Made by a program: the position numbers and the translations under genes. A DNA stretch of 64,000 nucleotides, from positions 77,646 through 141,645 of the forward strand of contig NZ_JNUP01000067.1 in NCBI RefSeq assembly GCF_000758165.1, given 5' to 3'. This stretch comes from Spirochaeta lutea (GTDB lineage Bacteria; Spirochaetota; Spirochaetia; DSM-27196; Salinispiraceae). Shown one piece after another: positions 9,040-60,952 of this stretch. Below the pieces are notes generated by a model, which made no database searches, had not been told where the DNA came from, and saw nothing but the letters and a program-made list of their open reading frames with translations. Positions within the stretch are counted from its first letter, which is position 1. Each line of letters begins with the position of its first letter.

Positions 9040-9190
9040 GGGTTTTCATAGTATACCCCGCTCCGGGGCTTGTAAACGGAATCGAGGATGGACAGGCTTT
9101 GTGGGGTGAAAAAGGTTGCAAACTACACCTATGCAGCGGAACAAACCGGAAAGCGATCCAGGGATAGGGTCGCCGGGGCAAAGGGGTACT

Positions 9191-9296
9191 TAGTGCGCAA
9201 AAGCTTGTAACTTTCCCAGTTCACTACGCTACCTCTGGAGCCTGAATCCGGGCAACCCCGCTATATCCGGTGTAGTTTACAACCTTTTGCGCACTA
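9191..9296. repeat. 106-bp intergenic element bounded by 21-bp inverted repeats TAGTGCGCAAAAGCTTGTAAC / GTTTACAACCTTTTGCGCACTA (copy A). An additional outer arm at 9110-9129 pairs with the same right arm.
   Basis: Direct reading. The arms are near-perfect reverse complements. The internal segment contains GGGGCAAAGGGG. The same architecture and length recur at 20083-20188. Confidence 0.65.
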
Positions 9297-9409
9297 TCAA
9301 AGGGGTACCGGCCATTGCGCTCTCTCGGAACGCCTGCCCCTCGTTATGCCGCCAGCGCTACCCCAAGGCCGGATACCCGGTTATTTCGCCCCGGTTATTT
9401 TGCCTCGGG

Positions 9410-19876: not shown

Positions 19877-20082
19877 ACCGGAGCAGAAATTGGCTGTTCC
19901 CGGTGCGGACTACTCGCTGCAAGCGTACGCTCCCGGTAGAGGAGATTACGATTGGCCGTCGCCGGTGCTGGTTGCACATCAATTGCAGCCCGGGGATGAG
20001 CTTTCCCGGCCGCGGCTGATCCGGGAACATAGCAGCGTACCCACCCGATCGCCTTCCGGCCCGGAACGCTACCAGGAATATG

Positions 20083-20188
20083 TAGTGCGCAAAAGGTTGT
20101 AAACTACGCCATATTCTAGTGGCGCAGTTCGGGAACCAACCCAGGGATGGTGTCACCAGGGCAAAAAGTTACAACCTTTTGCGCACTA
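20083..20188. repeat. 106-bp element bounded by inverted repeats TAGTGCGCAAAAGGTTGTAAAC / GTTACAACCTTTTGCGCACTA (copy B of the 9191-9296 family).
   Basis: Direct reading. Same length and terminal repeats as copy A, with an internal GGGCAAAAAG segment. It sits between convergent genes. Confidence 0.65.
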
Positions 20189-20275
20189 TACAAGGAACAA
20201 AAAAGGGATCCGACACCCTACCAGAGGCATCGGATCCCAAAGCATGGGGGTTCTACCGCCCATACCCAGACAACG

Positions 20276-28922: not shown

Positions 28923-29447
28923 CTAGGGAATCCAGAATTCCCGGTCAAGGGCGGTGAGATCGCTGAAAAACTCATCAATCTCCCGCCCCTTGAGGGGCAC
29001 TCCCTCGATGTACACCCCGCTGCGGATAATCTCCAGCTCGGCATCCCGGGTAGAACGGAACACGAGAAGCTCAATCTCGACGTGGTCGGGATTATTCCGG
29101 ATTCTTCCTTCTATAGTTACCCGGGAATGGGACCGGTCAATGGGGTTACTCTGCCACCGGGCTCCAGGCATCACGGTTTCAATGATTCGGCCAAAGGGGC
29201 GGCCGGGATTCTCAATTGTGGGCGATTTCTGCACCGCGAATACCCAATCATCATGCTGCATACCCGTAATCAGAAGCATTCCCCCCGTCAGGGCGAGGAT
29301 GACAATAGGCAGAACAGGCCATAAACTCGGTTTTACGATGGGCCTGGCCGGGGTGACTGTAGAAAGCTGAGACCCGCAGTGGGGACAGTACTGGGCGTTT
29401 GGGGGCAGGGCCGGTTCTTGACAGATGGGACAGACTCTCGAATTCAT
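28923..29447 (-). CDS. Zinc-ribbon-domain membrane protein (hypothetical).
   Basis: N-terminal CPICQ...YCPHCG zinc ribbon, followed by one TM helix WPVLPIVILALTGGMLLITGM. ATGA overlap with the upstream zinc-ribbon gene. Confidence 0.5.
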   Translation of the reverse strand: MNSRVCPICQEPALPPNAQYCPHCGSQLSTVTPARPIVKPSLWPVLPIVILALTGGMLLITGMQHDDWVFAVQKSPTIENPGRPFGRIIETVMPGARWQSNPIDRSHSRVTIEGRIRNNPDHVEIELLVFRSTRDAELEIIRSGVYIEGVPLKGREIDEFFSDLTALDREFWIP

Positions 29448-30409
29448 ATCTTTACCATGGAAATCTCAGGCTGAGCATGAGCCACCGGCATAGCCGGGGC
29501 GAAGACAGGACGGAGTCCCTGCAAAAAGAACGCACTAAGTACGGTTTGCCGATCAAACACCATCTCCAGCTGGTCAACCCCTGCGAGACTGAAGAACGGA
29601 CGGTAGAGACGGCCGCTGACTGCCGGCTGGAGGGTGAAGGCCTTCGCGTGAAATTGACCGGGAGCAATGGAGGACCGGGGAAAACTCAGCCACCTGCTCA
29701 ACCCCCGGCGCACCGATAGCAGCTGCAAACCCCTCCATACGGCCCTGCGACCCTGGGCGTCCCGCATCTCCAAACCTCCCCGGTACCCCCCCCAGGAGGC
29801 TGTTTGCAGACTATCCAGGTAAATCCATCCGAAAACCTGATCCTGCCCGCCGCTAACCTCTAAACAATATGCGCCCCGATCATCCAATCCGGGCCGGCAC
29901 CGCCACATCAGTTCCCCGGATTCCCGGCCCATGGCCCGGTTCACCGAAAATCCATCCCAGCCCCCCGGCACGCCGTGTCCAGAACCGTGTCCAGAACCGT
30001 GTCCAGAACCGTGTCCAGAACCGTGTCCAGAACCATACCGGGGATCGGAATCGCTCCCTGCCTGGATAACCGCCTGCCCGGAGGCCGAGGCATATCCGGA
30101 ACCAGAACCCGAGCAGCCCCGATCCTGACCCCCAGGCTGCCCGGAGGCCGAGCCGCCATCCCCCGGGCTGAATTCCGTACTGACGATGAAAACGGGTCGC
30201 TCCAACTGATCGGTAACCACCAGAGGCTGGGTTGAAAAAAACCGAAGTTCGAAATTTGCTATTCGTAATCCCAGGGTCAGACTGTCAGAAAGAGTGATAC
30301 CCCCGTATCGCTGGAGGGCTGCTCCACAGGAGTGACAAAAAAAATCGTTGCGATTAACCGGTACACTGCAGAAGGGACATTGATGATTCATACAGTATCC
30401 ATTATCCAT
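29444..30409 (-). CDS. Zinc-ribbon-domain protein with a (GSGH)x5 His/Gly repeat (hypothetical).
   Basis: N-terminal CPFCSV...FCHSCG zinc ribbon. Internal GSGHGSGHGSGHGSGHGSGHG is encoded by a 12-bp x5 tandem DNA repeat. Confidence 0.5.
   Translation of the reverse strand: MDNGYCMNHQCPFCSVPVNRNDFFCHSCGAALQRYGGITLSDSLTLGLRIANFELRFFSTQPLVVTDQLERPVFIVSTEFSPGDGGSASGQPGGQDRGCSGSGSGYASASGQAVIQAGSDSDPRYGSGHGSGHGSGHGSGHGSGHGVPGGWDGFSVNRAMGRESGELMWRCRPGLDDRGAYCLEVSGGQDQVFGWIYLDSLQTASWGGYRGGLEMRDAQGRRAVWRGLQLLSVRRGLSRWLSFPRSSIAPGQFHAKAFTLQPAVSGRLYRPFFSLAGVDQLEMVFDRQTVLSAFFLQGLRPVFAPAMPVAHAQPEISMVKI
29975..30034. repeat. Perfect tandem repeat (GTGTCCAGAACC)x5 inside the zinc-ribbon gene. It encodes the (GSGH)n tract on the minus strand.
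   Basis: Direct reading: five identical 12-bp units. Confidence 0.9.
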
Positions 30410-30515
30410 ACCGGGCCGGATTCCGCATTAAGAAAAATGCCTAGACCCCCGGGATTATGCTCCTGGCATGAAGGGGAACACCGAGTACCGCGAGGTATCT
30501 GCCGTCATCGGCGAG

Positions 30516-30604
30516 GGATGCGCCTAACATGAGAGGGAGCACCGGATGCGGGGGCTTTTCATTCCAGCGACGTTGTGGATGCGCCTAACATGAGAGGGAG
30601 CACC
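30516..30604. repeat. Two copies of a 28-bp direct repeat GGATGCGCCTAACATGAGAGGGAGCACC separated by a 33-bp spacer.
   Basis: Direct reading: identical 28-mers at 30516-30543 and 30577-30604. No cas genes in the window. Confidence 0.6.
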
Positions 30605-30741
30605 CCTTTGGACTGATATTGATTGTAGCGCTCAAAAGGTTGAAAACCACACCAGGTATAGCGGAGCCATCTAAAAGTCCACCCTTGGGTGGTGTCCCCG
30701 GGGTGCCATGGTACAACCTTTTGCACACTCTGAAAAAACCC

Positions 30742-30800
30742 TTGACAACCTTGCCATCAGGGTTTATACCTAAATTGTACTAATCAATTAATACAATAAT
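30742..30800 (+). promoter_or_regulatory. Sigma70-like promoter (TTGACA-N17-TATACC) overlapped by an operator palindrome GTACTAAT-N18-ATTAGTAC, upstream of the YtrA-type regulator gene.
   Basis: -35 at 30742-30747 and -10 at 30765-30770. Perfect 8-bp inverted repeat at 30767-30774 / 30793-30800 in an AT-rich island atypical for this high-GC window. Confidence 0.4.
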
Positions 30801-30955
30801 ACATTAGTACACTGGTACAAAGAGGGTGCAGAACCACGGGTGAGGGTAACTAAAAAAAACCAGCAATACCGTCCCTCGCCAGTCGGATGCAGAACCAGGC
30901 TTCCGGCGGGCTATGCACCCTCAATGAATCCGCCAGGGAGGTTGGCCAGGTGGCT

Positions 30956-36174: not shown

Positions 36175-36200
36175 TAGTGCACACAAGGTTGTGCACTCTA
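36175..36200. repeat. Short palindromic relative of the dispersed repeat arm (TAGTGCACA-CAAGGT-TGTGCACTCTA), immediately upstream of the LolA-like gene.
   Basis: Direct reading. Shares TAGTGC.CA..AGGTTGT with the 21-bp arms of the 106-bp elements. A further half-copy lies at 30690-30731 (GGTGTCCCCGGGGTGCCATGGTACAACCTTTTGCACACTC). Confidence 0.4.
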
Positions 36201-36214
36201 TAAGGAGAACATAT

Positions 36215-37003
36215 ATGAAACGGCTTTTACTATTGCTAACGATATTCCTTGGCGGCATCCTGGCGGGCACCACCCCCGGGTTTACCCAAACAAGCCCAGG
36301 TTCCCGGGCAGCCGGAACCCCGGCGAATTTGACGGCCGAACAGATAATCCGAAGGACCCAAAATAACGAGGTTCACGAAACCTCCTTTATCCGGGGACGG
36401 ATGACCATCGAGGACCGCTTCGGAAGCAAGGTAAGCACCTTCCGGGCCTGGTCCCAGGGAGAAGAGGATATGCTTCTGGAGTTCACCAGCGTGGAGGAGG
36501 AGGGACAAAAGGTCCTGCGCACCCAGGGGCAGCTCTACCTCTACTACCCCGACGCTGCGGAGATTATCCGCATCCAAGGCAGCGCTCTCCGGGACAGCCT
36601 CTTGGGCTCGGACTTTAGCTACGAGGATATGACCGGCGGCCGGGATCTCCTGGACACCTACCGGTTCACCCTCCTGGGAACCGAGTCCCTGGATGGCCGG
36701 GAGGCGTACAAGATACAAATGGATGCTAAAAACTCCAGCGTGGCGTACCCGAAGCAGATTGTCTGGATAGACACCCGGGATTTTGTAACCCTGCAATCCC
36801 ACCGCTTCAGCCTATCCGGCCGGCTCCTAAAGGAGATGCAGGTTCTGGAAACCATGGAGGTGGATGGAAAGATCTTCCCATCCCGGACTACCATGCGCGA
36901 CACCCTGAAAACCAACAGCTCCACGGAATTCGAGATCCTGGAAATCGAATTGGGCCTCACCCTCCCCCGGGGCATCTTCAGTCTGGAGGAACTCTCATGG
37001 TAG
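36215..37003 (+). CDS. Outer-membrane lipoprotein-sorting / LolA-like carrier family protein (probable).
   Basis: Signal peptide MKRLLLLLTIFLGGILAG. About 260 aa soluble beta-rich protein immediately downstream of the LolD/C/E-like genes. Overall resemblance to the LolA-like DUF family is a judgement, not a motif match. Confidence 0.5.
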   Translation: MKRLLLLLTIFLGGILAGTTPGFTQTSPGSRAAGTPANLTAEQIIRRTQNNEVHETSFIRGRMTIEDRFGSKVSTFRAWSQGEEDMLLEFTSVEEEGQKVLRTQGQLYLYYPDAAEIIRIQGSALRDSLLGSDFSYEDMTGGRDLLDTYRFTLLGTESLDGREAYKIQMDAKNSSVAYPKQIVWIDTRDFVTLQSHRFSLSGRLLKEMQVLETMEVDGKIFPSRTTMRDTLKTNSSTEFEILEIELGLTLPRGIFSLEELSW

Positions 37004-37111
37004 CCCCCCAGGTTCTTCATCCCGGATCACCCGGGGCAGGCTCGACGCGGACACCCCAGCCCCTCCTTGGCATGGTCATGGCGGCCCTGGGATTTCCAGG
37101 GGGGTGCCGGG

Positions 37112-37237
37112 CCGGGACTCTCCATCGGACCGGGACTCTCCGCCGGGCCGGGACTCTCCGCCGGGCCGGGACTCTCCATCGGACCGGGACTCTCCATCGG
37201 ACCGGGACTCTCCACAGAACCGGGACTCTCCACAGAA
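37112..37237. repeat. Tandem array of seven 18-bp units, CCGGGACTCTCC followed by a variable hexamer (ATCGGA, GCCGGG or ACAGAA).
   Basis: Direct reading. The units fall between the LolA-like stop (37003) and the most plausible start of the next gene (37318), or within an N-terminal extension of it. Confidence 0.85.
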
Positions 37238-37317
37238 CCGGGATGGTGGGGCAGGCCGGCCATCAAGGCGACCCCGATGAGCTCCCCAGGATTCCCACCC
37301 GGCATCGGGCCAATTCT

Positions 37318-38577
37318 ATGGAAATCCCCGGGGTCCAGGGCGGGCGTCTCTCACCCTCCCCAGTACGGATTCTAGTACTGTTCTTGATTCCGGTTCTCAT
37401 GGGGATCAGTCCGCGGTTCCTGGGCGCAGAGCAAACCCTTACAGCCAAGGTAACCGCCCTGTCCTCCATCCAGTACGACCAGGCTCTGGCCGACCTCGGC
37501 CCCCAGGCGGCTCCCGGAGGGGGGTCCCTCCTGCCCGCCCCGGGCTGGTCTGCCTACCCCGGCGCCCAGGCCGAGCTCGGCTTCGCTTCCCGGGGAAACC
37601 GGAATGTCCGGGCTGAAATACGGCTCTCGGCGACCCTGGGAACCCTCAGTTTTGTGGATGTATCCCGGCTCTGGGTGAAGTTCCGGGTTTCACCCCTCAC
37701 GGTTACCATCGGTAAAACCCGCCTTGCCTGGGGACAGGGACTCTTTTTTAATGCCGGGGACCTGCTCCACGGCAGCACCGATCTCACAGCCGATCTGCAG
37801 TCCGAAGAGCTCCGGAGCAATGCCGACTGGGTAACCGCCCTCACCTTCAGCCTCGGGACCTTCAGTATTCTGGAAGTAGCGGCGGTACTGCCCGCCCTGA
37901 ATACCCTGGCAGCTCTCTCCAGCCAGCTGTTCGCAGCCACAGGCCAGGCAGTCTCTGGGGGGACCGACCCCACCTCCAACCCGGGGATGCAGCTCTTTCC
38001 TCCCCTATCCCAGGGAAAGGCCGCCCTTCGTCTGGTTCTCCCCCTGGGCCCGGTAAACACCGAAACCGCATATCGCTTTACCTGGCAGCACCATACCTTG
38101 AGCATCTCCGCCCAATGGCATCTCCTCACCAATCTCTTCGCCGGCCTCACCCTGCCCATTCCCGGCCCCGGAGCATCCCAGGCTGACCAGGACGACCCGA
38201 CTGCGGCCCTATCCAGGGACATGCGAATCTCCGCAGGCCTCTACGACATTCTAAAACTCGGCAGAGAATCAAGTATATCCTACCGACTGGAAGCCCTCAT
38301 CTCCCCCGGGGCAGAGCCTGACGAGATCCTATACCTCTATCCCGAACTCACCCTCGCCATGAATCAAACCATGGCTCTATCGGTCCGGGGCCTCGCTGCC
38401 CCCCTGGAAGACCCCTGGGCAAACTGGAACCTGAGTTTCTCCTGGCAAATCTTCCAAGGTACAACCCTCCTGGCCCACCTGGGCGGTAAGGCCGGGGAGC
38501 TCGTCTGGGGAATCATGGAACCCGGCGCGCCCCAGGCGGATCTTCGCTTAACCCTGGGAGTACGCTATGTCTACTAA
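37318..38577 (+). CDS. Putative outer-membrane beta-barrel protein (hypothetical). Start placed at MEIPGVQG, ahead of a signal-peptide-like segment. The ORF is open back to 36997.
   Basis: n-region with Arg residues, h-region ILVLFLIPVLMGI, c-region FLGA/EQ. Alternating amphipathic pattern. C-terminus ...LGVRYVY has aromatic terminal residues typical of OMP barrels. Confidence 0.45.
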   Translation: MEIPGVQGGRLSPSPVRILVLFLIPVLMGISPRFLGAEQTLTAKVTALSSIQYDQALADLGPQAAPGGGSLLPAPGWSAYPGAQAELGFASRGNRNVRAEIRLSATLGTLSFVDVSRLWVKFRVSPLTVTIGKTRLAWGQGLFFNAGDLLHGSTDLTADLQSEELRSNADWVTALTFSLGTFSILEVAAVLPALNTLAALSSQLFAATGQAVSGGTDPTSNPGMQLFPPLSQGKAALRLVLPLGPVNTETAYRFTWQHHTLSISAQWHLLTNLFAGLTLPIPGPGASQADQDDPTAALSRDMRISAGLYDILKLGRESSISYRLEALISPGAEPDEILYLYPELTLAMNQTMALSVRGLAAPLEDPWANWNLSFSWQIFQGTTLLAHLGGKAGELVWGIMEPGAPQADLRLTLGVRYVY

Positions 38578-43740: not shown

Positions 43741-46700
43741 ATGCAGACCCAAAGCAACCATGGGCATCTTAAACAGGGAGACCGGCGGAATGTCACCGTC
43801 CTGTTCACCGATCTGGAGGACTTCACCCGGCTCTCCCAGGACCTGGATCCAGAAGAAACCGAGCAACTCATGGATACGGTATTCTCCAGTTTCGAGCAGA
43901 TCATCCGGCGACACGAAGGAACGGTTGAAAAATATATCGGCGACGCCCTGGTAGCAGTCTTCGGCACCCCCAGAATTCATGAGGACGACCCCGTACGGGC
44001 TGTACATGCAGCCCTGGATTTTTACCAGGTTGTACGCCGGCTGAACCAGGGCTTCACCACCCACAACCAGGGGCTGCGGTTCAGGACCGGAATTCACACC
44101 GGCCTCATCACCACGGGGAAGCGGGGTGATCACACCGTGGTGACCGGCCACACCATGAACATTGCCGCCCGATTACAGAGCGCCGCCGACCCGGGAACCA
44201 TTCTGGTAAGCGAACAAACCCACCAGGAATGCGGCGGGGAGTTCGCCGTATCACCGCCCCAGGAGATCAAGGCCAAGGGCATCAGCGACCTGATCTCAGC
44301 CCGAAAGATTCTCGGGCGCAGCCCCCATTCCCTTAAAGATGAACGGTTCTTCCTCGGCAACACCGACCTGGAATCCGAGATTCTGACCGCATACCTTCGG
44401 TTTGACGGTACATCCCCCGGGGGATTTCTCCTGGAAGGAGAGCCCGGTTCGGGCAAAACGGCCCTGGCCAAACACATCATCAGTAAACTCAGGGCCTTCC
44501 CCGACTTCCAGGCCCCGATCCTCCACGCCCGGGCGCGCAAGTTCCGCAGCCGCCCCTTCGCCGTCATCACCGACAGCATCATCAACACCCTGCACCTCTC
44601 CCCGGACAGCGCCCCCGAAGAGATCACCGCCGCCCTGGAACACCAGTACAGGATCCCCCAATCCTCCGCCCGGGCTTTCCCCGCCACCCTGGAGCTGCAT
44701 TCCAAGGACAAGGCGCCGGGGGACTACCTGCCCATGCTCACGGAAATCTTCCGGGCCATCCTCAGTACCCCGACCCCGGGGCCCTACCAGCCCATCATCT
44801 TCGTCGACAATACCGATTTCATTGATCCCCAAAGCATGGCGTTTTTCCGGTTCTACATCCGTCAAAGTCAGCAGTTTCCCTTCTTCCTCTTCACCGACCG
44901 CCACCCGGGGGAGGATATCTGCTCCCTCTTTCCCGACATCGAGGTCCGGGAGGTTCCGCCTCTGGGGACGGTGGACGCCCAGGCTCTGATTCAGCATCTT
45001 CAGGATCAATACCAGCTTCCTCTCAAACACGAAGATGTTCAGCGAATTCTGACCAGCGCCGGGGGCAATCCCCTGTTCCTCCAGAGCTACATCCGGTACA
45101 TGGCGGAACACCACGAAGAACAGAATCCCGTGGAGGTACCGTCAACGGTACAGAACGTGTATCTGGCAGAGCTGAGCACCTATAACGATGATGTACGGGA
45201 TTTGCTAAAGAAACTATCGGTGTTTAACCATTCCTTCTCCCTGGCTGATGCCCAGTGGATGCAAACCCAGACCCAGGGGGATCCCGGTTTAGTAACCCGG
45301 GCCCTGGAGTTCTTCCTCCAGCAGGATATCATCACCCAGGAAAACGACATCTACTACTTCCGCCACGATGTACAGAAAAAAGCGATATACAACAGTCTCC
45401 TAAACTACAACAAACGTATTCTGCACCGCCTCATCGCTGCCCGCATGAGAATGCAGGATCATCCCCATCCGGTCCGGCTGGTTCACCACCTTGTGAGGAG
45501 TGAAGCCTACCAGGAAGCCTTGGACGTACTAAAGACCGCTCCGGACCGCAGCGTGAACCTGGATTTTCTGCCCTATCTTGAACTCATGGAATCAACCTTC
45601 CAGGGGGATGATCTGGATACCCAGCTGAGCATCCAGTTCAGCCGTTGTGCTATTCTCTTTAATAACGGGCGCACCAAAGAGGCCGACACCATCGTACAAA
45701 AAATCCTCAGCACCGCTATATCCCGCCAGCATCTGCCCTCCGCAGCCCGGGCCTACCACCTGTTAACCGGGTATAATGCGAAAAGTTTCCGGTACAATAA
45801 GGCATCCTACTGCGGCATGAAGGCCTTGGATTTTTACCGCCGCAGCAACCCCGAGCACCCCGCCCAGGGAAACCTGCTTCACATTCTTGTGGGTATGGAA
45901 ACCGCCCGGGGTTCTGTGAACCGGGCCCAGGAGCTCCTTGATGAGCTTGATCAAACCGCCCGGGATGTCCCAGCCATCCGGTTCGCCGCCGACTTCGCCC
46001 GGATAGAATTCCTTGAAATTCAGGGGCTGTACCGGGATGCCCAGGACCGTCTGGCTGCCCTGCCGGATACCTTCCAGGATTCGGATGTTCCCCTCTACAA
46101 GGAGCGGTTTATGGCGAGTCTGGCATGGAACCGTCTTGATCTGGAGCAGTTTCTGTCGGTAGCTCCGGCTATTATCCAATCTCCCAGCCAGGATGCAGCC
46201 ACCCGGGCACGCCTCAGCGCCCGGACTGCCTTCGCCCGGCACTCCCTTCTGGGTTTCGCCCCGGGAGATTACCTCGACCAGGCAGCCTTCTACAGCCTTA
46301 GGACCCAAAACGATTTCGATCTGCTCAGCGCTGAAGCCGGACGGTCCCAGGTTCTGGCTTGTCTGGGAGAATACGAGAAGGCCGAGGCAGTCGCCCGGGA
46401 AACCCTCTCCCTGGCCCTGCGGCACTCGGCCTTCCACCCCGCCTTTACCCTGCTCATGGTGCTTCTGGAAACGGCCGTCATACGGGGAAATCAGAAGGAG
46501 ATTGAGTTTTATCTGATTGAAGCAGAGCATATCCATCGCCAGGGCATGTACTTGGATCCCCTGGACACCATTCAGTACCGCTATTTCAGGGCCATCCACC
46601 TGCCTGCCGGCTGCCAGCCCAGGCCGGAGGAGGAGCTCCAGGAGCTATGGAGCCGTACCCTGGAAAACCTCCAGGGAGAGAGGGGCGTTGAAATCCTCCT

Positions 46701-46758
46701 GGGAATGAGAAATTTTGCAGAAATTCAGAAAAGTCTTGAAAGCCGTACCCGGTCATGA
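43741..46758 (+). CDS. Class III nucleotidyl (adenylyl/guanylyl-type) cyclase domain fused to a STAND/AAA+ P-loop NTPase and a C-terminal TPR-like helical repeat region.
   Basis: Cyclase homology domain: RNVTVLFTDLEDFT (metal Asp), KYIGDALVAVFG (second metal Asp), GIHTGLITTG. Walker A LLEGEPGSGKTALAK about 230 aa in. About 550 aa of helical repeats follow. No HTH seen at the C-terminus. Confidence 0.8.
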   Translation: MQTQSNHGHLKQGDRRNVTVLFTDLEDFTRLSQDLDPEETEQLMDTVFSSFEQIIRRHEGTVEKYIGDALVAVFGTPRIHEDDPVRAVHAALDFYQVVRRLNQGFTTHNQGLRFRTGIHTGLITTGKRGDHTVVTGHTMNIAARLQSAADPGTILVSEQTHQECGGEFAVSPPQEIKAKGISDLISARKILGRSPHSLKDERFFLGNTDLESEILTAYLRFDGTSPGGFLLEGEPGSGKTALAKHIISKLRAFPDFQAPILHARARKFRSRPFAVITDSIINTLHLSPDSAPEEITAALEHQYRIPQSSARAFPATLELHSKDKAPGDYLPMLTEIFRAILSTPTPGPYQPIIFVDNTDFIDPQSMAFFRFYIRQSQQFPFFLFTDRHPGEDICSLFPDIEVREVPPLGTVDAQALIQHLQDQYQLPLKHEDVQRILTSAGGNPLFLQSYIRYMAEHHEEQNPVEVPSTVQNVYLAELSTYNDDVRDLLKKLSVFNHSFSLADAQWMQTQTQGDPGLVTRALEFFLQQDIITQENDIYYFRHDVQKKAIYNSLLNYNKRILHRLIAARMRMQDHPHPVRLVHHLVRSEAYQEALDVLKTAPDRSVNLDFLPYLELMESTFQGDDLDTQLSIQFSRCAILFNNGRTKEADTIVQKILSTAISRQHLPSAARAYHLLTGYNAKSFRYNKASYCGMKALDFYRRSNPEHPAQGNLLHILVGMETARGSVNRAQELLDELDQTARDVPAIRFAADFARIEFLEIQGLYRDAQDRLAALPDTFQDSDVPLYKERFMASLAWNRLDLEQFLSVAPAIIQSPSQDAATRARLSARTAFARHSLLGFAPGDYLDQAAFYSLRTQNDFDLLSAEAGRSQVLACLGEYEKAEAVARETLSLALRHSAFHPAFTLLMVLLETAVIRGNQKEIEFYLIEAEHIHRQGMYLDPLDTIQYRYFRAIHLPAGCQPRPEEELQELWSRTLENLQGERGVEILLGMRNFAEIQKSLESRTRS

Positions 46759-46770
46759 CAGAATACGAGT

Positions 46771-47211
46771 ATGAACGACTTTGAAGTACTCCAGGGAGTA
46801 CCACTTTTTAAGGCTCTGAACCCGAAATACCTCAAGACCATTTACAAGGCCTGTACCCGCCGGGATTTTGCACCCGGAGAGTACCTGGTAGAACAGGGAA
46901 CCCAGGGAGTTGGGCTTTTCATCATCGAGAGCGGTTTGGTGAAGGTCATTAAAACCCGCACAGACGGAACCATCATTGATGTGGCAAAACACGGTCCCGG
47001 AGAGTTTATCGGGGAAATGAGCATTATTGACGGTGCTCCCCGGTCAGCAAGTGTCCAGGCTCTGGAGGCGACTCAATGTCTTGTACTCTCAAGCTGGAGC
47101 TTTCAGTCCATTCTGGAGGCCCATCCCGAGGTGGCCTTGGGAATCCTCCCCATGCTGGCTAAACGCTTTCGGGAGACCAACGAGGCGCTGCTCAAGGCCC
47201 AGGGTGAATAA
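46771..47211 (+). CDS. Stand-alone cyclic-nucleotide-binding (CAP/CRP effector-type) domain protein.
   Basis: Phosphate-binding cassette GEFIGEMSIIDGAPRSASVQA with the conserved Arg. Beta-roll context. 146 aa with no DNA-binding domain. 12-nt gap from the cyclase gene. Confidence 0.8.
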   Translation: MNDFEVLQGVPLFKALNPKYLKTIYKACTRRDFAPGEYLVEQGTQGVGLFIIESGLVKVIKTRTDGTIIDVAKHGPGEFIGEMSIIDGAPRSASVQALEATQCLVLSSWSFQSILEAHPEVALGILPMLAKRFRETNEALLKAQGE

Positions 47212-47228
47212 CCGGTAGGATCGTCGCC

Positions 47229-48275
47229 ATGTTACCAGGAAGAACGGTTCGCATCCTGTCCATTGATGGCGGCGGTATCCGGGGCATTATTCCGGCCCTG
47301 CTTCTCCATCACATCAAACAGAATCTTGAGGCCCGGGGGCAGGAGAAACCCTTTGCCCGGATCTTCGACCTTGTCGCGGGCACCTCCACCGGGGGCTTGA
47401 TCGCCCTGGGGCTCACGGCTCCGGATACCGAAACCCCTCCGGCATCAAACCTGCTCTCCTGGCTGACTCGCCGCCGCCCGGAACCGAAACTGGGCATCAT
47501 GAACCTGGTGGATTTCTACCGGAAACAGGGAGAGTCTATCTTTCCCTCCCGGGGATTCCACCGCTGGAGGAACCTTGCCCAGGCGTTTACCGAAAAATAC
47601 GATACCCAGGCACTAGAAACCATCGCCCGGGACATCCTGGGCGACCTTACCCTGCGTCAAACCCTCTGTCCTGTATTGATTACTGCCTACGACACCACCC
47701 GAATGTCCATGCAGCTTTTCCGGACCACCAAGGCCCGGATCGATAAGAAGGAAAACTTCTACCTCCGGGATGTTCTCCGGGCCACCAGCGCCGCTCCAAC
47801 CTACTTCGAGCCCCACCAGCTCAGTCCGGTAGACCGGCCGGACCTGGAGTATACCATGGTGGACGGTGCGGTGTTTGCCAACAATCCCGCCCTCCTGGCC
47901 TACTACGAGGCGAAGCGGATTTTCCCCCTGGCAAAACGCTTTGTCATTGTATCCCTTGGAACGGGACGGCAGCAGCGCAGCTACGAGTACGACCAGATGC
48001 AGCGCTGGGGCTTCCTAGACTGGATCAACCCCCTGAAGGGCGTCCCCCTGCTCACCATGATGAACTCCGCCCAGAATCAGCTGGCCACCTACCAATTGGA
48101 TCGTGCCAGGGATGTAGACTATATCCGCCTGGACCGCGCCCTGGAGGGCTGCAGCGCCCGGATTGACGATGCCAGCCCCCGAAATATCGAGTGCCTGGAA
48201 GAGTTTGTAGAAAAAATCATCGCCAGCTCCGAACCCGAGCTCACCCGCATAATCAACCTTCTTAAGCGAGCCTAG
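47229..48275 (+). CDS. Patatin-like phospholipase.
   Basis: Oxyanion DGGGIRG, lipase pentapeptide GTSTG, catalytic Asp in MVDGAVFANNP. 17-nt gap from the cNMP-binding gene. Confidence 0.85.
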   Translation: MLPGRTVRILSIDGGGIRGIIPALLLHHIKQNLEARGQEKPFARIFDLVAGTSTGGLIALGLTAPDTETPPASNLLSWLTRRRPEPKLGIMNLVDFYRKQGESIFPSRGFHRWRNLAQAFTEKYDTQALETIARDILGDLTLRQTLCPVLITAYDTTRMSMQLFRTTKARIDKKENFYLRDVLRATSAAPTYFEPHQLSPVDRPDLEYTMVDGAVFANNPALLAYYEAKRIFPLAKRFVIVSLGTGRQQRSYEYDQMQRWGFLDWINPLKGVPLLTMMNSAQNQLATYQLDRARDVDYIRLDRALEGCSARIDDASPRNIECLEEFVEKIIASSEPELTRIINLLKRA

Positions 48276-50367: not shown

Positions 50368-52789
50368 GTCTCCGGCTTTTACTGCCGGGGGCAGCGGCGG
50401 ATTAGCCGGGGACGCCGGCGGGCTTGGGGTATCCGGCAGCAGCGGCTTAGTCGCGGGCAGCGGCGGAGTGTCCGGCGGATTAGCCGGGGGCGCCGGCGGG
50501 CTTGGGGTATCCGGCAGCAGCGGCGGAGGGCTCGGATATGCCGCAGGTGGCGGCCCCCGGATGGCTGCGGGTGCTTCTGGGGGAGCTGGTGGAACGGGGG
50601 TCGTCTCTTCCCCCATGGCATCCTCCGGGGGCGCCAGTGCCTCCGGTTCGGGTTCCGGTGCCTCCGGTTCCGGTGCTTCGGGTTCCGCTTCCGGTGCCTC
50701 CGGGGCCGGGTATAGTGCCGGGTCCCCCGGGGGAAACCGAACCCTGAAGAGCCCTCTGGGTGATGTGACCGACCTCGGGGATCCCCAGCTCTGGCAGCTG
50801 GAGTCGGTGTACCCCGGGCTCGACAGCCCTCAGTATAAAGGAGATATCCAAGAGCTCCGGGAGCTCATAGAACGGGCCAGTAAGGTCTTTGCCGAGGAAC
50901 CGGACTCCCAAACCAGGGCTGTAGAGTGGCTCACCCAGTGCCTGGATCTTCAGGCCCGGATCGCCACCCTGGACGAAACCCTGGAAAGCTATCTCTATTG
51001 CCGGTACTCCACCGATACCAGAGACAGTGCCGTCATGGCGGAACTGAACGCCGTGGAAGCCATGGTGGTGCCGGCAAAAACGGCCCAGGTGGTGTTCCGC
51101 AACAGCCTCGCCCGGGCCTGTTCCCGGGGATTTTTCGGCAGGGCGTTGGCGGACCCCCCGGGGTCGAGCCGTGGAGCCTCCCAGGCCCGGGAGGTATCCC
51201 GGGCCATTCGTGAGAGCTTGGCGGATCTTCCCCCCGGACTTGCCGATTTTCGGTTTGTTCTGGAAGAGGCCCTGGAGGAACAGAAGCACCAGATGAGCCC
51301 TGAGCTGGAAGACCTCGCTGCTGATCTAAACCGTTCCGGCGGTGAGGCCTGGGGCCGGCTGCAGCAACAAATTTCTTCCAACCTCTCCATGCCCTGGAAG
51401 AACCCGGGTGAATCGGATAAAACGCCGGGAACGCCCGCCGCCCCAGCCTCTTCCCGGGATTCCGCCGAGGGATCCAGGGCAGAAGACCCTTCAGGTTCTG
51501 TAGAACAACCCGATCAACCCCAGCGAAAAACCGTCATCGAGCTTCGATCCCTGGCCTTCGATCCGGACCGCCGAATTCGAAAACAGGCCTACGAGCTTGA
51601 GCTGGAGGCATGGAAACAGGTGGAAATACCCATGGCGGCAGCCATAAACGGGGTAAAGGGATTTTCTATAAGCATTGATTCGCGCCGGGGCTATGAAGAA
51701 TCCCTGGACCGCTCGGTAGCCCTTAACCGCATAACCCGGAAAACCCTGGATGCCATGATTTCAGCCATGGAACAACACCTGCCCGACTTCCACCGGTACC
51801 TCCAGAAGAAGGCGGAGCTGCTCGGCTTGGAACGCCTCTCCTTTTACGACATCTTCGCTCCCCTGAAGGCCCCGGACTCACCTGAACCCGCCCCACCCCG
51901 GAACAGCGGCCGGGATCAGTCCTTTCCCAGCACCTGGAGCTATGAACAGGCCGGAAATTTCATCATCGAAACCTTCCGGGGCTTCAGCCAGGACCTGGGC
52001 GACTTTGCTGCAAAGGCCTTTGAGTCCCGGTGGATCGACGCGCGGCCCCGCCCGGGAAAGATCGGAGGCGCCTACTGTACCGATCTGCCAAAGCCCGGAG
52101 AAAGCCGTATCTTGGCAAACTTTGACGGCAGTTTTTCCAGTGTTTCCACCCTGGCTCACGAACTCGGCCACGCCTATCACAGCTATGTGCTCCGGGACCA
52201 GCCCCAGCTCCTGCGCAGCTACCCCATGACCCTGGCGGAGACCGCATCCATCTTCTGTGAAACCATTATCTATAACACTGCCATTGAGAATTCAGGGGGA
52301 TTCCAACGTCTGAGCCTCATCGAGGGCATTCTCTCCGAGAGCACCCAGGTGATCGTAGACATTCTCAGCCGCTTTTATTTTGAGCGGAATCTCTTTGGAT
52401 CCCGAAAGAACCGTGAACTGAGCCCCGACGAGCTCTGCCAGGCCATGGTCCAGGCTCAGAAGGACAGCTACGGCCCGGGACTCAACCAGGAAGAACTGCA
52501 TCCCTACATGTGGGCAGTAAAGGGCCATTACTACAGTCCTGAACTGGCTTTTTATAATTTCCCCTACGCTTTCGGACAGCTCTTCGGCCTCGGACTCTAC
52601 GCCCAGTATAAGGAGAACCCCAGAGAGTTCCCGGAAGCCTACCGGACCATCTTGGTAGAAACCGGCCGTGCCAACGCAGTGGATGTCTGTAAGTCGGCAG
52701 GCTTCTCCATAGAAACCCCGGACTTTTGGAATCAGGGACTTTCTGCTATAGTCAATTTTGTGAACATCTTCACCAAGGGATCAACATGA
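50348..52789 (+). CDS. pepF: M3-family oligoendopeptidase F with a ~120-aa Gly/Ser/Ala-rich N-terminal extension. The true start may lie further downstream.
   Basis: Zinc motif HELGHAYHS, with downstream PepF-like blocks. The N-terminal low-complexity region is encoded by a 51-bp direct repeat. Stop overlaps the gpsA start (ATGA). Confidence 0.75.
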   Translation: MINGSTKSPAFTAGGSGGLAGDAGGLGVSGSSGLVAGSGGVSGGLAGGAGGLGVSGSSGGGLGYAAGGGPRMAAGASGGAGGTGVVSSPMASSGGASASGSGSGASGSGASGSASGASGAGYSAGSPGGNRTLKSPLGDVTDLGDPQLWQLESVYPGLDSPQYKGDIQELRELIERASKVFAEEPDSQTRAVEWLTQCLDLQARIATLDETLESYLYCRYSTDTRDSAVMAELNAVEAMVVPAKTAQVVFRNSLARACSRGFFGRALADPPGSSRGASQAREVSRAIRESLADLPPGLADFRFVLEEALEEQKHQMSPELEDLAADLNRSGGEAWGRLQQQISSNLSMPWKNPGESDKTPGTPAAPASSRDSAEGSRAEDPSGSVEQPDQPQRKTVIELRSLAFDPDRRIRKQAYELELEAWKQVEIPMAAAINGVKGFSISIDSRRGYEESLDRSVALNRITRKTLDAMISAMEQHLPDFHRYLQKKAELLGLERLSFYDIFAPLKAPDSPEPAPPRNSGRDQSFPSTWSYEQAGNFIIETFRGFSQDLGDFAAKAFESRWIDARPRPGKIGGAYCTDLPKPGESRILANFDGSFSSVSTLAHELGHAYHSYVLRDQPQLLRSYPMTLAETASIFCETIIYNTAIENSGGFQRLSLIEGILSESTQVIVDILSRFYFERNLFGSRKNRELSPDELCQAMVQAQKDSYGPGLNQEELHPYMWAVKGHYYSPELAFYNFPYAFGQLFGLGLYAQYKENPREFPEAYRTILVETGRANAVDVCKSAGFSIETPDFWNQGLSAIVNFVNIFTKGST
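50396..50525. repeat. Two copies of a 51-bp direct repeat (GGCGGATTAGCCGGGG-R-CGCCGGCGGGCTTGGGGTATCCGGCAGCAGCGGC) at the 5' end of the pepF ORF.
   Basis: Direct reading. Copies at 50396-50446 and 50475-50525 differ at one position. Confidence 0.75.
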
Positions 52790-55809: not shown

Positions 55810-55881
55810 GGCGCCGTACCCAAGTGGTAAGGGAGAGGTCTGCAAAACCTTCATGCACCGGTTCGAATCCGGTCGGCGCCT
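55810..55881 (+). tRNA. tRNA-Cys (anticodon GCA). CCA is not encoded.
   Basis: Acceptor GGCGCCG/CGGCGCC, D-arm CCC-AAGTGGTAA-GGG, anticodon stem GAGGT/ACCTT with loop CTGCAAA, T-arm ACCGG-TTCGAAT-CCGGT, discriminator T. Confidence 0.8.
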
Positions 55882-59337: not shown

Positions 59338-60951
59338 ATGGGATTGATGAAGAAAAACCATTGGTACACCCGGCTGAAAAGCCTCATTGAATACAGCCTC
59401 AGAAATCTCTACGAACGCGATCAGACCGTACGGCTCAGTCTGCTGGGGGCTCTGGCAGGGGAATCGGTATTCCTCCTGGGTCCGCCGGGGGTGGGAAAGA
59501 GCCTGATCGCCCGGCGGCTTAAATACTGCATCAGGGACGGCAGGGCCTTTGAATACCTCATGGGACGGTTCTCCACCCCGGATGAACTATTCGGACCCGT
59601 GTCCATCCAGCGGCTGACGAACCAAGACCGCTACGAGCGGCTGGTTTCCGGTTACTTGCCGGATGCGGACATCGTCTTCCTGGATGAGGTATGGAATGCC
59701 AGCCCACCCATTCAAAACGCCCTGCTCACCGCCATGAATGAAAAAAGGTACCGCAACGGCACCGAGGAACTCACCATCCCCATGAAACTCCTCATGGGAG
59801 CATCCAACAGCCTGCATCCCGGGGAGGAAACGGCGGCCTTCTGGGACCGGTTTCTCATCCGCCTCCAGGTACATCCCATAACCGAACAGCAGAGTTTCCT
59901 GGATTTTCTCCAGGATCAGGAAGATCCCTATGCCGACCCGGTGCCCCCGGAGGTTAAAATCACCCGGGAAGAATGGGAAACCTTCCAGGCCCAATCCACC
60001 GAGGTTACCCTGCCTCCTGTCATAACCAACCTGCTCTACCAGGTACGGTCCGCCCTGGCGGCTGACCACCCCAGCTCTGACCGGCGCTGGAAAAAGATCC
60101 TGCGGCTGCTAAAAGCGAGCGCCCTAGCAAACGGACGAGACAGCATCGGACTCTCGGACTGTTTCCTCCTGGAACATTGCCTCTGGGAGACTCCCGACCA
60201 GGCCGAGACCATGGGTGAACTTATCAACCAGGCGGTTTCCCGCAGTCTCCAGGAACTGCAACGACCCCTGATGAGAGAACTGGAGGGCTGCCGGGGAGCG
60301 CTACAGGAGATAGAACAGACCCTGGCTGACCAGGGCACCTACCAAGTGCACGAGCCGCTGATCATCGATGGAGAGTATTACCGGTTTCTGCCCGATTCCG
60401 AGGATTCAGCAGAATCGGCGGAGACCACGACAGACCGGGAATTTCGCATTTGGCGGCCCGACGCCGAACCGATTCTGGAAGAATCACCCCGGGAACAACA
60501 TGCTGAGATTTTCGTCCACCACCAGGGACGGCTGCAGTCCACCCTCCGGGGCCGACTCTGTCCCCGGGGCAGTACCGGGAACAGTCCCGGACTGGTTATC
60601 CGCTTCGATGACGCCAGGGAGATCAGGGGCACCATAGAGGTGCAGCCCCGGATGTTTCGTCCCGAAACGCCGGAGCAATTCGCTACGATCCTGGGTTCCA
60701 TGAACGGGACACCGCAACTGGAATCCTGGAAGGAAACCCTGAAGGAGAACCGCAGCAAGGTGCTTCAAGCCCTAGCGACCATTGATTCCATGGGACGGGA
60801 TTTGTCCCAGGAGATCAGCGAGCATCTCTTCACCCCCCGGGAGGAGCTGCAGACCCTGGATGCCCCCCTGGTCGACCTGGCCCGGGACTTTTCCATCCTC
60901 GGCGAAACCCTGGACCTGTACCTGAATTCCCGTACCGCCTGGAGGGACTAG
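59338..60951 (+). CDS. MoxR-family AAA+ ATPase, RavA-like.
   Basis: Walker A LLGPPGVGKSLIARRL, Walker B DIVFLDEVWNASP. Followed by a VWA-domain partner gene, as in ravA-viaA. Confidence 0.8.
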   Translation: MGLMKKNHWYTRLKSLIEYSLRNLYERDQTVRLSLLGALAGESVFLLGPPGVGKSLIARRLKYCIRDGRAFEYLMGRFSTPDELFGPVSIQRLTNQDRYERLVSGYLPDADIVFLDEVWNASPPIQNALLTAMNEKRYRNGTEELTIPMKLLMGASNSLHPGEETAAFWDRFLIRLQVHPITEQQSFLDFLQDQEDPYADPVPPEVKITREEWETFQAQSTEVTLPPVITNLLYQVRSALAADHPSSDRRWKKILRLLKASALANGRDSIGLSDCFLLEHCLWETPDQAETMGELINQAVSRSLQELQRPLMRELEGCRGALQEIEQTLADQGTYQVHEPLIIDGEYYRFLPDSEDSAESAETTTDREFRIWRPDAEPILEESPREQHAEIFVHHQGRLQSTLRGRLCPRGSTGNSPGLVIRFDDAREIRGTIEVQPRMFRPETPEQFATILGSMNGTPQLESWKETLKENRSKVLQALATIDSMGRDLSQEISEHLFTPREELQTLDAPLVDLARDFSILGETLDLYLNSRTAWRD

Positions 60952-60952
60952 G

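What the first reader, a model, noticed from the sequence alone, without database searches (positions are those of the whole stretch)
9110..9296. Dispersed family of ~106-bp elements bounded by 21-bp inverted repeats (TAGTGCGCAAAAGGTTGTAAAC), in at least two full and three partial copies
**What the sequence shows**
- Two full copies have identical length (106 bp) and near-identical terminal inverted repeats, at 9191-9296 and 20083-20188.
- A nested extra arm lies at 9110-9129.
- A right-half copy lies at about 30690-30731.
- A short palindromic relative lies at 36175-36200.
- All are intergenic, and the internal sequences share a GGGCAAARG core.

**Interpretation**
- This looks like a MITE/REP-like mobile or regulatory repeat family specific to this genome.
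- Alternatively, the half-sites upstream of genes are binding sites of a regulator.
- The arm TAGTGC-N-GCACTA would also suit a dimeric HTH protein.
Basis: seen in the sequence. Interest (0 to 1): 0.6.

Follow-up and report, generated by a model that had tools for sequence, protein, structure and literature searches.

The report
Small mobile repeat family in Spirochaeta lutea
The repeats are real: they are copies of a roughly 106-bp non-coding "hitch-hiker" transposon (a MITE) scattered between ordinary genes of Spirochaeta lutea. This is an ordinary kind of genomic parasite; its only unusual feature is a long (11-13 bp) target-site duplication.

Summary
The window (Spirochaeta lutea) carries four full-length copies of a 104-106 bp element with 22-28 bp terminal inverted repeats.

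- **Copies:** c1 is at 9191-9296, c2 at 20083-20188 and c3 at 30626-30730.
- **Nested copy:** the "extra arm" near 9110 is the left end of a fourth, older copy, c0 (9102-9189 plus 9309-9324). c1 inserted into c0.
- **Target duplications:** c1 is flanked by an exact 11-bp duplication. Two other copies have flanking repeats in the same register (10 contiguous bases; 8/11).
- **Further copies:** four more lie just right of the window, giving eight copies in about 89 kb.
- **What they are not:** they have no coding capacity, no Rfam match and no compensatory changes in the stem. Half the sites lie between convergent genes, and between-strain substitution is at or above background.
- **History:** every copy that could be checked sits at the same site in two to four sequenced strains that are 97.7-99% identical. 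The family is therefore old and currently quiet.

Best reading: a MITE moved in trans by a DDE transposase, possibly of the IS4 type. No transposase was found and the genome-wide copy number could not be measured. This is a new member of a known kind, of low to moderate interest.

The parts
9191..9296 (-). Copy c1: full-length 106-bp element, inverted relative to the others, inserted inside copy c0. Arms TAGTGCGCAAAAGCTTGTAACT (9191-9212) and TAGTGCGCAAAAGGTTGTAAAC (9296-9275, minus strand).
   Evidence: nhmmer E=3.5e-27. Present at the same site in two other samples.
9179..9189 (.). Left copy of the 11-bp target-site duplication CAAAGGGGTAC made by insertion of c1. It is part of c0's interior.
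   Evidence: this 11-mer occurs only at 9179 and 9298 in the window; 11/11 match in the register one base outside each TAGTG/CACTA end.
9298..9308 (.). Right copy of the 11-bp target-site duplication CAAAGGGGTAC.
9102..9189 (+). Copy c0, left part: degenerate left arm (TGGGGTGAAAAAGGTTGCAAACTACACC) plus interior, up to the point where c1 inserted.
   Evidence: D4; E=5.8e-20; an HMM built without c0 still matches it.
9309..9324 (+). Copy c0, right part: the remainder of its degenerate right arm (CGGCCATTGCGCTCTC) after c1 and the duplicated target.
   Evidence: with c1 and one duplication copy removed, c0 aligns end to end with the other copies; the match extends from HMM positions 7-89 to 7-104 and gains 5-6 bits only after this excision.
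20083..20188 (+). Copy c2: full-length 106-bp element with the best arms (the two arms are identical over the first 20 nt). It lies between the convergent ends of a GntR/sugar-binding regulator gene (stop 19876) and an alpha-amylase-family gene (stop 20276). Flanks ACCAGGAATAT (20071-20081) and ACAAGGAACAA (20190-20200) match 8/11 in the same register as c1's duplication.
   Evidence: (E=2.2e-30).
30626..30730 (+). Copy c3: full-length 105-bp element with more degenerate arms, in the divergent intergenic region between ORF 29444-30409 (-) and a short GntR-family gene at 30887 (+). No recognisable target duplication.
   Evidence: I1, D16; E=7.5e-29. In two other strains its right arm carries the consensus GCGCACTA.
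36175..36200 (.). Doubtful relative: TAGTGCACACAAGGTTGTGCACTCTA, an 8-bp inverted repeat with a 6-nt spacer, 15 nt upstream of the ribosome-binding site of the LolA-like gene. It could be a relic made of fused element ends (22/26 to left arm 1-18 plus right end 8), or it could be unrelated.
   Evidence: profile E about 1-4, not significant; unchanged in another strain. The fused-ends reading is my inference.

Best explanation
[quoted passage not shown] Each is a non-coding element of 104-106 bp whose 22-28 bp ends (consensus TAGTGCGCAAAAGGTTGTAAACTACACC) are the recognition sites of a transposase encoded elsewhere.

**Shown here**
- The terminal inverted repeat architecture.
- The absence of coding capacity.
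- A nested insertion (c1 inside c0) with an exact 11-bp target duplication.
- Flanking direct repeats in the same register at two further copies.
- Dispersal of eight copies over about 89 kb, in unrelated intergenic contexts.
- No sign of selection on the element as RNA or as an operator.

**Inferred**
- A DDE-type transposase binds the two ends, excises or copies the element, and inserts it through cuts staggered by 11-13 bp, about one helical turn. Repair of the cuts produces the duplication.
- That duplication length is characteristic of the IS4 family (IS4 subgroup 10-13 bp, IS231 10-12 bp), so an IS4-like partner is the best guess. I give this sub-claim about 0.35.
- c1 and c2 have almost identical arms (43/44) but divergent interiors (39/62). 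This fits propagation from several diverged source copies, with only the transposase-binding ends constrained.
- The family now appears quiescent. Every copy checked is fixed at the same site in strains 1-2% apart, and some copies are truncated (c4, c5) or decayed (c0, c3, c6).

**Side effects on the host are incidental**
- The element can form strong hairpins (-39 to -53 kcal/mol in c1 and c2).
- c4 supplies the last codons and the stop codon of an ASCH-domain gene.
- c0, c3 and c7 sit 63-157 nt upstream of gene starts.
For: **Repeat family is real.** The arm matches 5 times against 0 in shuffles. Four profile hits have E between 1e-20 and 1e-30.

**Nested insertion.** The exact 11-bp repeat CAAAGGGGTAC flanks c1 and occurs nowhere else in the window. 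After removing c1 and one repeat copy, c0 aligns end to end with the other copies. An HMM built without c0 then extends from positions 7-89 to 7-104.

**Same register elsewhere.**
- c6 has an exact 10-bp repeat, GAGGTAAGAA.
- c2 matches 8/11 (9/13).
- By my binomial estimate, chance gives about 1e-3 for 8/11 and 2e-7 for 11/11 in a fixed register.

**Dispersal.** Further copies c4, c5, c6 and c7 lie right of the window. Contexts include convergent, divergent and tandem gene pairs.

**Not an RNA.** There is no Rfam hit at gathering thresholds, and only generic hairpin hits far below threshold in E-value mode. RNAalifold's covariation term is +1.8, and most arm changes break pairs.

**No purifying selection.** Elements differ between strains at 13 of about 424 positions (about 3%), against a 1.2-2.3% background.

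**Arm and interior conservation, indels.** Arms are conserved far more than interiors. Indels are almost absent.

**IS4-type duplication length.** PMC2266710 Table 1.

**MITEs are common in Spirochaetes.** PMC11602168.
Against: - No transposase, and no longer element bounded by the same ends, was found. Pfam scans of about 40 ORFs in the window were negative, as were the genes called on the flanking contigs.
- No presence/absence polymorphism was seen among the strains available, so mobility is inferred from target duplications only.
- c3 has no recognisable duplication (3/11).
One search missed copy c4, which matches the search pattern.
- Strong arm conservation and a near-constant 104-106 bp length would also fit a host-selected function or inter-copy gene conversion. 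A cluster of 5 differences within 27 nt at c3's right end looks like a conversion tract.
- The termini match the published IS4-subgroup end signature only loosely.
Confidence: 0.8

Rival explanations
1. Host-selected protein-binding element. The arms would be operators (paired half-sites about 84 bp apart) for a dimeric HTH regulator or a nucleoid-associated protein, and the repeats would be kept because they regulate neighbouring genes.
For: - Arms are much better conserved than interiors (43/44 against 39/62 for c1 and c2).
- Length is nearly constant, with almost no indels.
- c0, c3 and c7 lie 63-157 nt upstream of gene starts.
- GntR-family genes neighbour c2 and c3.
Against: - c2, c4 and c5 lie between convergent gene ends, where there is no promoter to regulate.
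- c4 and c5 keep a single arm.
- c1 sits inside another copy with a target duplication, which an operator would not produce.
- The elements change between strains at least as fast as their surroundings, including in the arms of c3.
- The GntR gene beside c3 has its own distinct palindrome, GTACTAAT...ATTAGTAC.
- Neighbouring genes share no common function.
Confidence: 0.07
2. Structured RNA element: a small RNA gene, or an extragenic hairpin that terminates transcription or stabilises mRNA, as REP and ERIC elements do. It would be selected for its long terminal stem.
For: - c1 and c2 fold far better than shuffled sequence (z = -5 to -8; -39 to -53 kcal/mol).
- Half of the sites are at 3' gene ends.
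Against: - The stem is simply the inverted repeat.
- c3 folds no better than shuffles on one strand (z = -1.6).
- RNAalifold's covariation term is unfavourable (+1.8), and arm substitutions break pairs rather than compensate.
- There is no Rfam family.
- No promoter-like site lies inside the copies, and c2 lies beyond a canonical terminator of the amylase gene.
- Single-arm copies persist.
Confidence: 0.05
3. REP/BIME-type repeats spread by a RAYT (IS200/IS605-like tyrosine transposase) rather than by a DDE transposase.
For: - The repeats are short, extragenic, hairpin-capable and often lie between convergent genes.
- Two left arms are preceded by G, giving GTAG.
Against: - Each arm is not itself a palindrome, unlike REP units.
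- A GTAG head is present at only 2 of 6 arm ends.
- Target-site duplications of 10-11 bp flank c1 and c6. By established knowledge of IS200/IS605 and RAYT elements, their single-strand transposition does not make such duplications.
- No Y1 transposase was found in the ORFs scanned.
Confidence: 0.03

Closest known systems
Bacterial MITEs in general (for example Correia/CREE of Neisseria, RUP of Streptococcus pneumoniae, MITEs reported in Leptospira, Treponema and Sediminispirochaeta)
   Same: - Around 100-bp size, non-coding, with 20-28 bp terminal inverted repeats.
- Intergenic and dispersed, hairpin-capable, with target-site duplications and occasional nesting.
- Spirochaetes are reported to be MITE-rich (PMC11602168).
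- Size class and TIR length resemble the short Correia form (from my own knowledge).
   Different: - No sequence similarity to any searched collection or paper.
- The target duplication is 11-13 bp. Correia and IS630-type MITEs duplicate TA (from my own knowledge), and PMC11602168 gives 2-10 bp as the usual range.
- Copies are old and divergent (59-73% identical) rather than a recent burst.
IS4-family insertion sequences and their MITE derivatives (IS4 subgroup, IS231 and its MIC231 derivatives)
   Same: - The target duplication of about one helical turn (10-13 bp for the IS4 subgroup, 10-12 bp for IS231; PMC2266710 Table 1) matches the 11-13 bp seen here.
- TIR length is within the family range of 10-40 bp.
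- The terminal TAGTG loosely resembles the IS4-subgroup end signature -AATR.
   Different: - No transposase was seen.
- The termini fit the signature only partly: the third base is G, not A, and the WTW block matches 2 of 3 positions.
- IS231 and ISH8 ends begin with CAT, which is not the case here.
- Membership is therefore a lead, not a finding.
REP/BIME elements with RAYT transposases
   Same: Short extragenic repeats that can form hairpins, often at 3' gene ends.
   Different: The arms are not self-palindromic, there is no consistent GTAG or CGTC head, target duplications are present, and the unit is about 106 bp with long-range inverted repeats.

Membership tests
MITE (non-autonomous TIR transposon) | Small size (under about 800 bp) with no coding capacity | tested here: met
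   Copies are 104-106 bp. Every reading frame of c1 and c2 is interrupted by stops or is at most 35 codons long.
MITE (non-autonomous TIR transposon) | Terminal inverted repeats of at least 10-15 bp | tested here: met
   Arms are 22-28 bp. In c2 the two arms are identical over the first 20 nt.
MITE (non-autonomous TIR transposon) | Target-site duplication flanking the element | tested here: met
   c1 11/11 exact; c6 10 contiguous bases; c2 8/11, all in the same register. c3 has none.
MITE (non-autonomous TIR transposon) | Multiple dispersed copies in one genome | tested here: met
   Eight copies in about 89 kb of S. lutea sequence. The genome-wide count was not obtainable.
MITE (non-autonomous TIR transposon) | An autonomous partner element with the same TIRs that encodes the transposase | not testable with these tools
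   None was found in the window or flanking contigs.
MITE (non-autonomous TIR transposon) | Insertion polymorphism (occupied against empty sites) between strains | tested here: not met
   c0/c1, c3, c4 and c5 are at identical sites in samples 97.7-99% identical. This argues against recent activity, not against past transposition.
IS4-family-derived element | Target duplication of about one helical turn (IS4 subgroup 10-13 bp; IS231 10-12 bp) | tested here: met
   11-13 bp, compared with PMC2266710 Table 1.
IS4-family-derived element | Subgroup-specific terminal signature (IS4 subgroup: -AATR--------WTW----) | tested here: inconclusive
   TAGTGCGCAAAAGGTTGTAA has A at position 2, T at 4 and G (R) at 5, but G instead of A at position 3. 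Positions 14-16 are GTT against WTW. This is my comparison with the table read.
IS4-family-derived element | Cognate DDE transposase with a YREK motif | not testable with these tools
   No transposase sequence was available.
REP/BIME (RAYT-associated) | Unit is a 20-40 bp imperfect palindrome with a GTAG or CGTC head | tested here: not met
   The arms are not self-complementary. GTAG precedes only 2 of 6 arm ends.
REP/BIME (RAYT-associated) | No target-site duplication | tested here: not met
   Duplications of 10-11 bp flank c1 and c6.
Known RNA family (Rfam 15) | Score at or above a family's gathering threshold | tested here: not met
   The only hit in the window is a tRNA at 55810. In E-value mode the best hits are 22 bits against a 73-bit threshold.

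The most novel reading that the evidence does not exclude
The family may be more than decaying junk. Near-perfect arm conservation, a fixed 104-106 bp length with almost no indels, and a possible conversion tract at c3 could mean one of two things. The elements may be maintained by the host, for example as binding sites of a DNA-structuring protein or as hairpin signals at gene ends. Alternatively they may be an orphan MITE family, like Correia elements, moved by a transposase of an undescribed type that makes 11-13 bp duplications.
Probability: 0.1. Interest if true: 0.5.

Novelty: new member of a known kind. Interest (0 to 1): 0.27.

Why it matters
- The finding gives a name and boundaries to an unannotated repeat family in S. 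lutea.
- It probably contributes to the fragmentation of short-read assemblies of this species. Contigs from independent datasets end at the well-preserved copies c1 and c7 (three and two datasets), and in the isolate's run at c2.
- Its 11-13 bp target duplication lies outside the 2-10 bp range usually assumed for MITEs (PMC11602168). Automated MITE censuses may therefore miss families like this one.
- It points to past activity of an IS4-like transposase in a free-living spirochaete.
- Nothing here challenges current understanding of transposable elements.

Tried and rejected
**Scans of public collections**
- A degenerate 20-mer arm pattern against genome contigs gave only 9 unrelated single hits, about the number expected by chance. 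This says nothing about copy number, because the scan also missed copy c4, which matches the pattern. The source genome is evidently not searchable there.
- A two-core gap pattern against metagenome contigs gave 82 hits. None resembles the arms outside the fixed cores.
- Arm patterns against viral contigs gave 0 hits.
- Plasmids, blastn: no match.
- A literature search for the arm string found 0 papers.

**RNA and regulatory readings**
- Rfam, in gathering and E-value modes, gave nothing meaningful.
- The RNA-structure reading was rejected on lack of covariation.
- Promoter and terminator scans found no promoter inside the copies.
- The integron attC and Correia-like (TA duplication) ideas were dropped: the R'/R'' cores are absent and the duplication is 11-13 bp.

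**Comparisons between species and strains**
- Empty-site comparison between species was impossible, because the nearest transketolase relative is only 54% identical.
- Comparison between strains showed no polymorphism.

**Look-ups and sampling that failed**
- Two look-ups of the window's edge genes failed: no gene with exactly that product is on record.
- A search with the chemotaxis receptor (MCP) to find S. lutea paralogues for wider genome sampling returned none.

**Unresolved**
- I tried to explain the exact contig break coordinates by k=31 repeat logic and could not.

Full report

Yes. The 22-nt arm (up to 3 mismatches) occurs five times in the window and never in 100 dinucleotide-preserving shuffles. 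Repeat finding and alignment show full-length units at three places:
- c1 at 9191-9296, inverted relative to the others;
- c2 at 20083-20188;
- c3 at 30626-30730.

An nhmmer profile finds these three copies plus 9100-9189, with E values from 1e-20 to 1e-30. Nothing else in the 64 kb is significant.

The palindrome at 36175-36200 matches 18/22 of an arm, but the profile does not find it significant (E about 1-4). It could be a relic of fused element ends (22/26 by my comparison), or it could be unrelated. It is unchanged in another strain.

**2. The 'extra arm' is a fourth copy split by a nested insertion.**

The sequence to the left of c1 (9102-9189) has a left arm and an interior that align with c2. 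The sequence immediately to the right of c1 continues with a degenerate right arm (9309-9324).

c1 is flanked by an exact 11-bp direct repeat, CAAAGGGGTAC, at 9179-9189 and 9298-9308. These are the only two occurrences in the window.
- With c1 and one repeat copy removed, the reconstructed c0 aligns end to end with the other copies at 56-67% identity. That is the same range as c1-c3 among themselves.
- An HMM built only from c1-c3 extends its match from model positions 7-89 to 7-104 and gains 5-6 bits only after this excision.

This is the signature of one element transposing into another and duplicating its target.

**3. Source organism and wider sampling.**

The transketolase next to c1 is 100% identical to that of Spirochaeta lutea. 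The next best hit is only 54% identical, so no close species is available for empty-site comparison.

The source genome could not be scanned directly. The genome-collection scan returned only chance hits, and it missed a copy, found later, that matches the search pattern. I therefore walked outward on Logan contigs of the isolate's sequencing run and of related samples. This revealed four more copies to the right of the window:
- c4, about 65.1 kb in window-equivalent coordinates. It is 5'-truncated with a perfect right arm, and it supplies the last codons and the stop codon of an ASCH-domain gene.
- c5, about 69.8 kb. Only the right half remains, and it is degenerate.
- c6, about 83.1 kb. It is full length with decayed arms.
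- c7, about 87.6 kb. Only a right arm is visible, at a contig end.

That makes eight copies in about 89 kb. The contexts are:
- between convergent genes (c2, c4, c5);
- between divergent genes (c3);
- between tandem genes (c0/c1, c6);
- directly upstream of a gene (c7).

The neighbouring genes are unrelated housekeeping and carbohydrate-use genes, and no transposase is among them.

**4. Target-site duplications.**

I compared the 13-mers that directly abut the TAGTG...CACTA core on each side of the four intact full copies:

| Copy | Left flank | Right flank | Match |
|---|---|---|---|
| c1 | GCAAAGGGGTACT | TCAAAGGGGTACC | 11 contiguous |
| c6 | ACCGAGGTAAGAA | TTTGAGGTAAGAA | 10 contiguous |
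| c2 | TACCAGGAATATG | TACAAGGAACAAA | 9/13 (8/11 in the inner register) |
| c3 | - | - | none |

Three of the four intact full copies thus carry flanking repeats in the same register. This implies a fixed cut geometry with a stagger of 11-13 bp. All three targets have AGG at the same position, which hints weakly at a target preference.

**5. What the element is not.**

- *Not a known RNA.* Rfam gives only a tRNA elsewhere in the window, and generic hairpin hits far below threshold in E-value mode.
- *Not an RNA stem under selection.* The strong predicted hairpins of c1 and c2 (z = -5 to -8) are just the inverted repeats. RNAalifold's covariation term is unfavourable (+1.8), and arm substitutions mostly break pairs.
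- *Not an operator.* Half the sites have no promoter to control, two copies keep one arm only, and no promoter-like site lies within the copies.
- *Not REP/BIME.* The arms are not palindromic and the copies have target duplications.

**6. Evolutionary state.**

Related samples that are 97.7-99.1% identical carry the copies at identical sites: c0/c1 in two other samples, c3 in two, and c4 and c5 in one. A fourth sample shows c0's left part only. No insertion polymorphism was seen.

Within the elements, 13 of about 424 comparable positions differ between strains (about 3%). The background is 1.2-2.3%, so there is no purifying selection.

Copies are 59-73% identical overall. Yet c1 and c2 have arms that match at 43/44 positions and interiors that match at only 39/62. 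This pattern is expected if only the transposase-binding ends were constrained in the lineages of active source copies.

Two observations leave room for something more:
- Length is almost invariant despite the divergence.
- Five of the six between-strain differences in c3 cluster within 27 nt at its right end. There the other strains carry the consensus arm, which looks like gene conversion.

**7. Likely mechanism and closest relatives.**

The anatomy is that of a bacterial MITE moved in trans. A duplication of about one helical turn is typical of the IS4 family: 10-13 bp for the IS4 subgroup and 10-12 bp for IS231 (PMC2266710 Table 1). The terminal TAGTG only loosely resembles the IS4-subgroup end signature -AATR. 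An IS4-like partner is therefore a reasoned guess (about 0.35), not a finding.

MITEs are reported to be abundant in Spirochaetes (PMC11602168). That paper gives 2-10 bp as the usual duplication range, so this family lies just outside it. No similar sequence was found in genome, metagenome, viral or plasmid collections, or in the literature.

**8. Unexplained.**

Logan contigs end at the well-preserved copies:
- c1, at window 9271 and 9277, in three independent datasets;
- c2, at 20103 and 20132, seen directly only in the isolate's run (identical 10,833-bp contigs in other samples suggest the same break there);
- c7, in two datasets.

They do not end at the decayed or single-arm copies. The exact repeats visible in the sampled region are at most 25 nt long. 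By my understanding that Logan assemblies use k=31, that is too short to branch the assembly graph. Either longer identical copies exist elsewhere in the genome, or hairpins depress read coverage.

**9. Verdict.**

This is a genuine, previously undescribed MITE family of S. lutea. It is old, fixed and partly decayed, with an unusually long target duplication. It is a new member of a known kind, of low to moderate interest.

Noticed in passing
window 30455-30604: Three 28-nt direct repeats (GGATGCGCCTAACATGAGAGGGAGCACC; the first copy is 71% identical) recur at a 61-bp period with unrelated 33-nt spacers. This is a CRISPR-like mini-array immediately to the left of copy c3, and no cas genes were seen in the window. 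In two other strains both good repeats carry the same two substitutions (A to G and G to C), which is a concerted change.
   Followed up: partly
window 43741-48275: A gene trio resembling a Pycsar/CBASS-like cyclic-nucleotide signalling or defence cluster with a split sensor and effector. It comprises a 1005-aa nucleotide cyclase with AAA/STAND and TPR domains (PADLOC PycC, 58 bits), a stand-alone 146-aa cNMP-binding protein (it matches the cNMP-binding part of PycTIR, 60 bits), and a patatin-like phospholipase (PADLOC phospholipase effector, 218 bits).
   Followed up: partly
window 30770-30820: An AT-rich palindrome, GTACTAAT-N19-ATTAGTAC, lies just downstream of a TTGACA hexamer and upstream of the short (155 aa) GntR-family gene at 30887. 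That gene heads a slipin plus ABC/FtsX (MacB-like) plus LolA-like gene row. The palindrome is probably the regulator's own operator and is distinct from the MITE arms.
   Followed up: no
window 37090-37261 (in ORF 36997-38577): There are at least seven tandem 18-bp repeats inside a 526-aa ORF with no Pfam match. The orthologue in another strain is 497 aa, which suggests variation in repeat number.
   Followed up: no
window 29973-30046 and 50395-50524: A 12-bp tandem repeat (five copies) lies inside ORF 29444-30409. A 52-nt direct repeat (98% identical, 78 bp apart) lies at the start of the M3 peptidase ORF. Short-read contigs break at both places, at 30002/30005 and at 50495.
   Followed up: no
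window 59338-62401: An adjacent bpMoxR-type AAA ATPase and a VWA-domain protein, the pairing described for MoxR-vWA ternary systems.
   Followed up: no
L102:1847-2932 compared with L103:6636-7158 (outside the window, about 80 kb): An MscS-type mechanosensitive channel gene that is intact in the isolate carries two internal deletions (about 217 and 386 nt) in the strain from sample ERR14788035.
   Followed up: no
L093:14599-14616 (outside the window, about 65.1 kb): The last six codons and the TAG stop of an ASCH-domain gene are encoded by the truncated MITE copy c4, so the element has been recruited into a coding sequence.
   Followed up: partly
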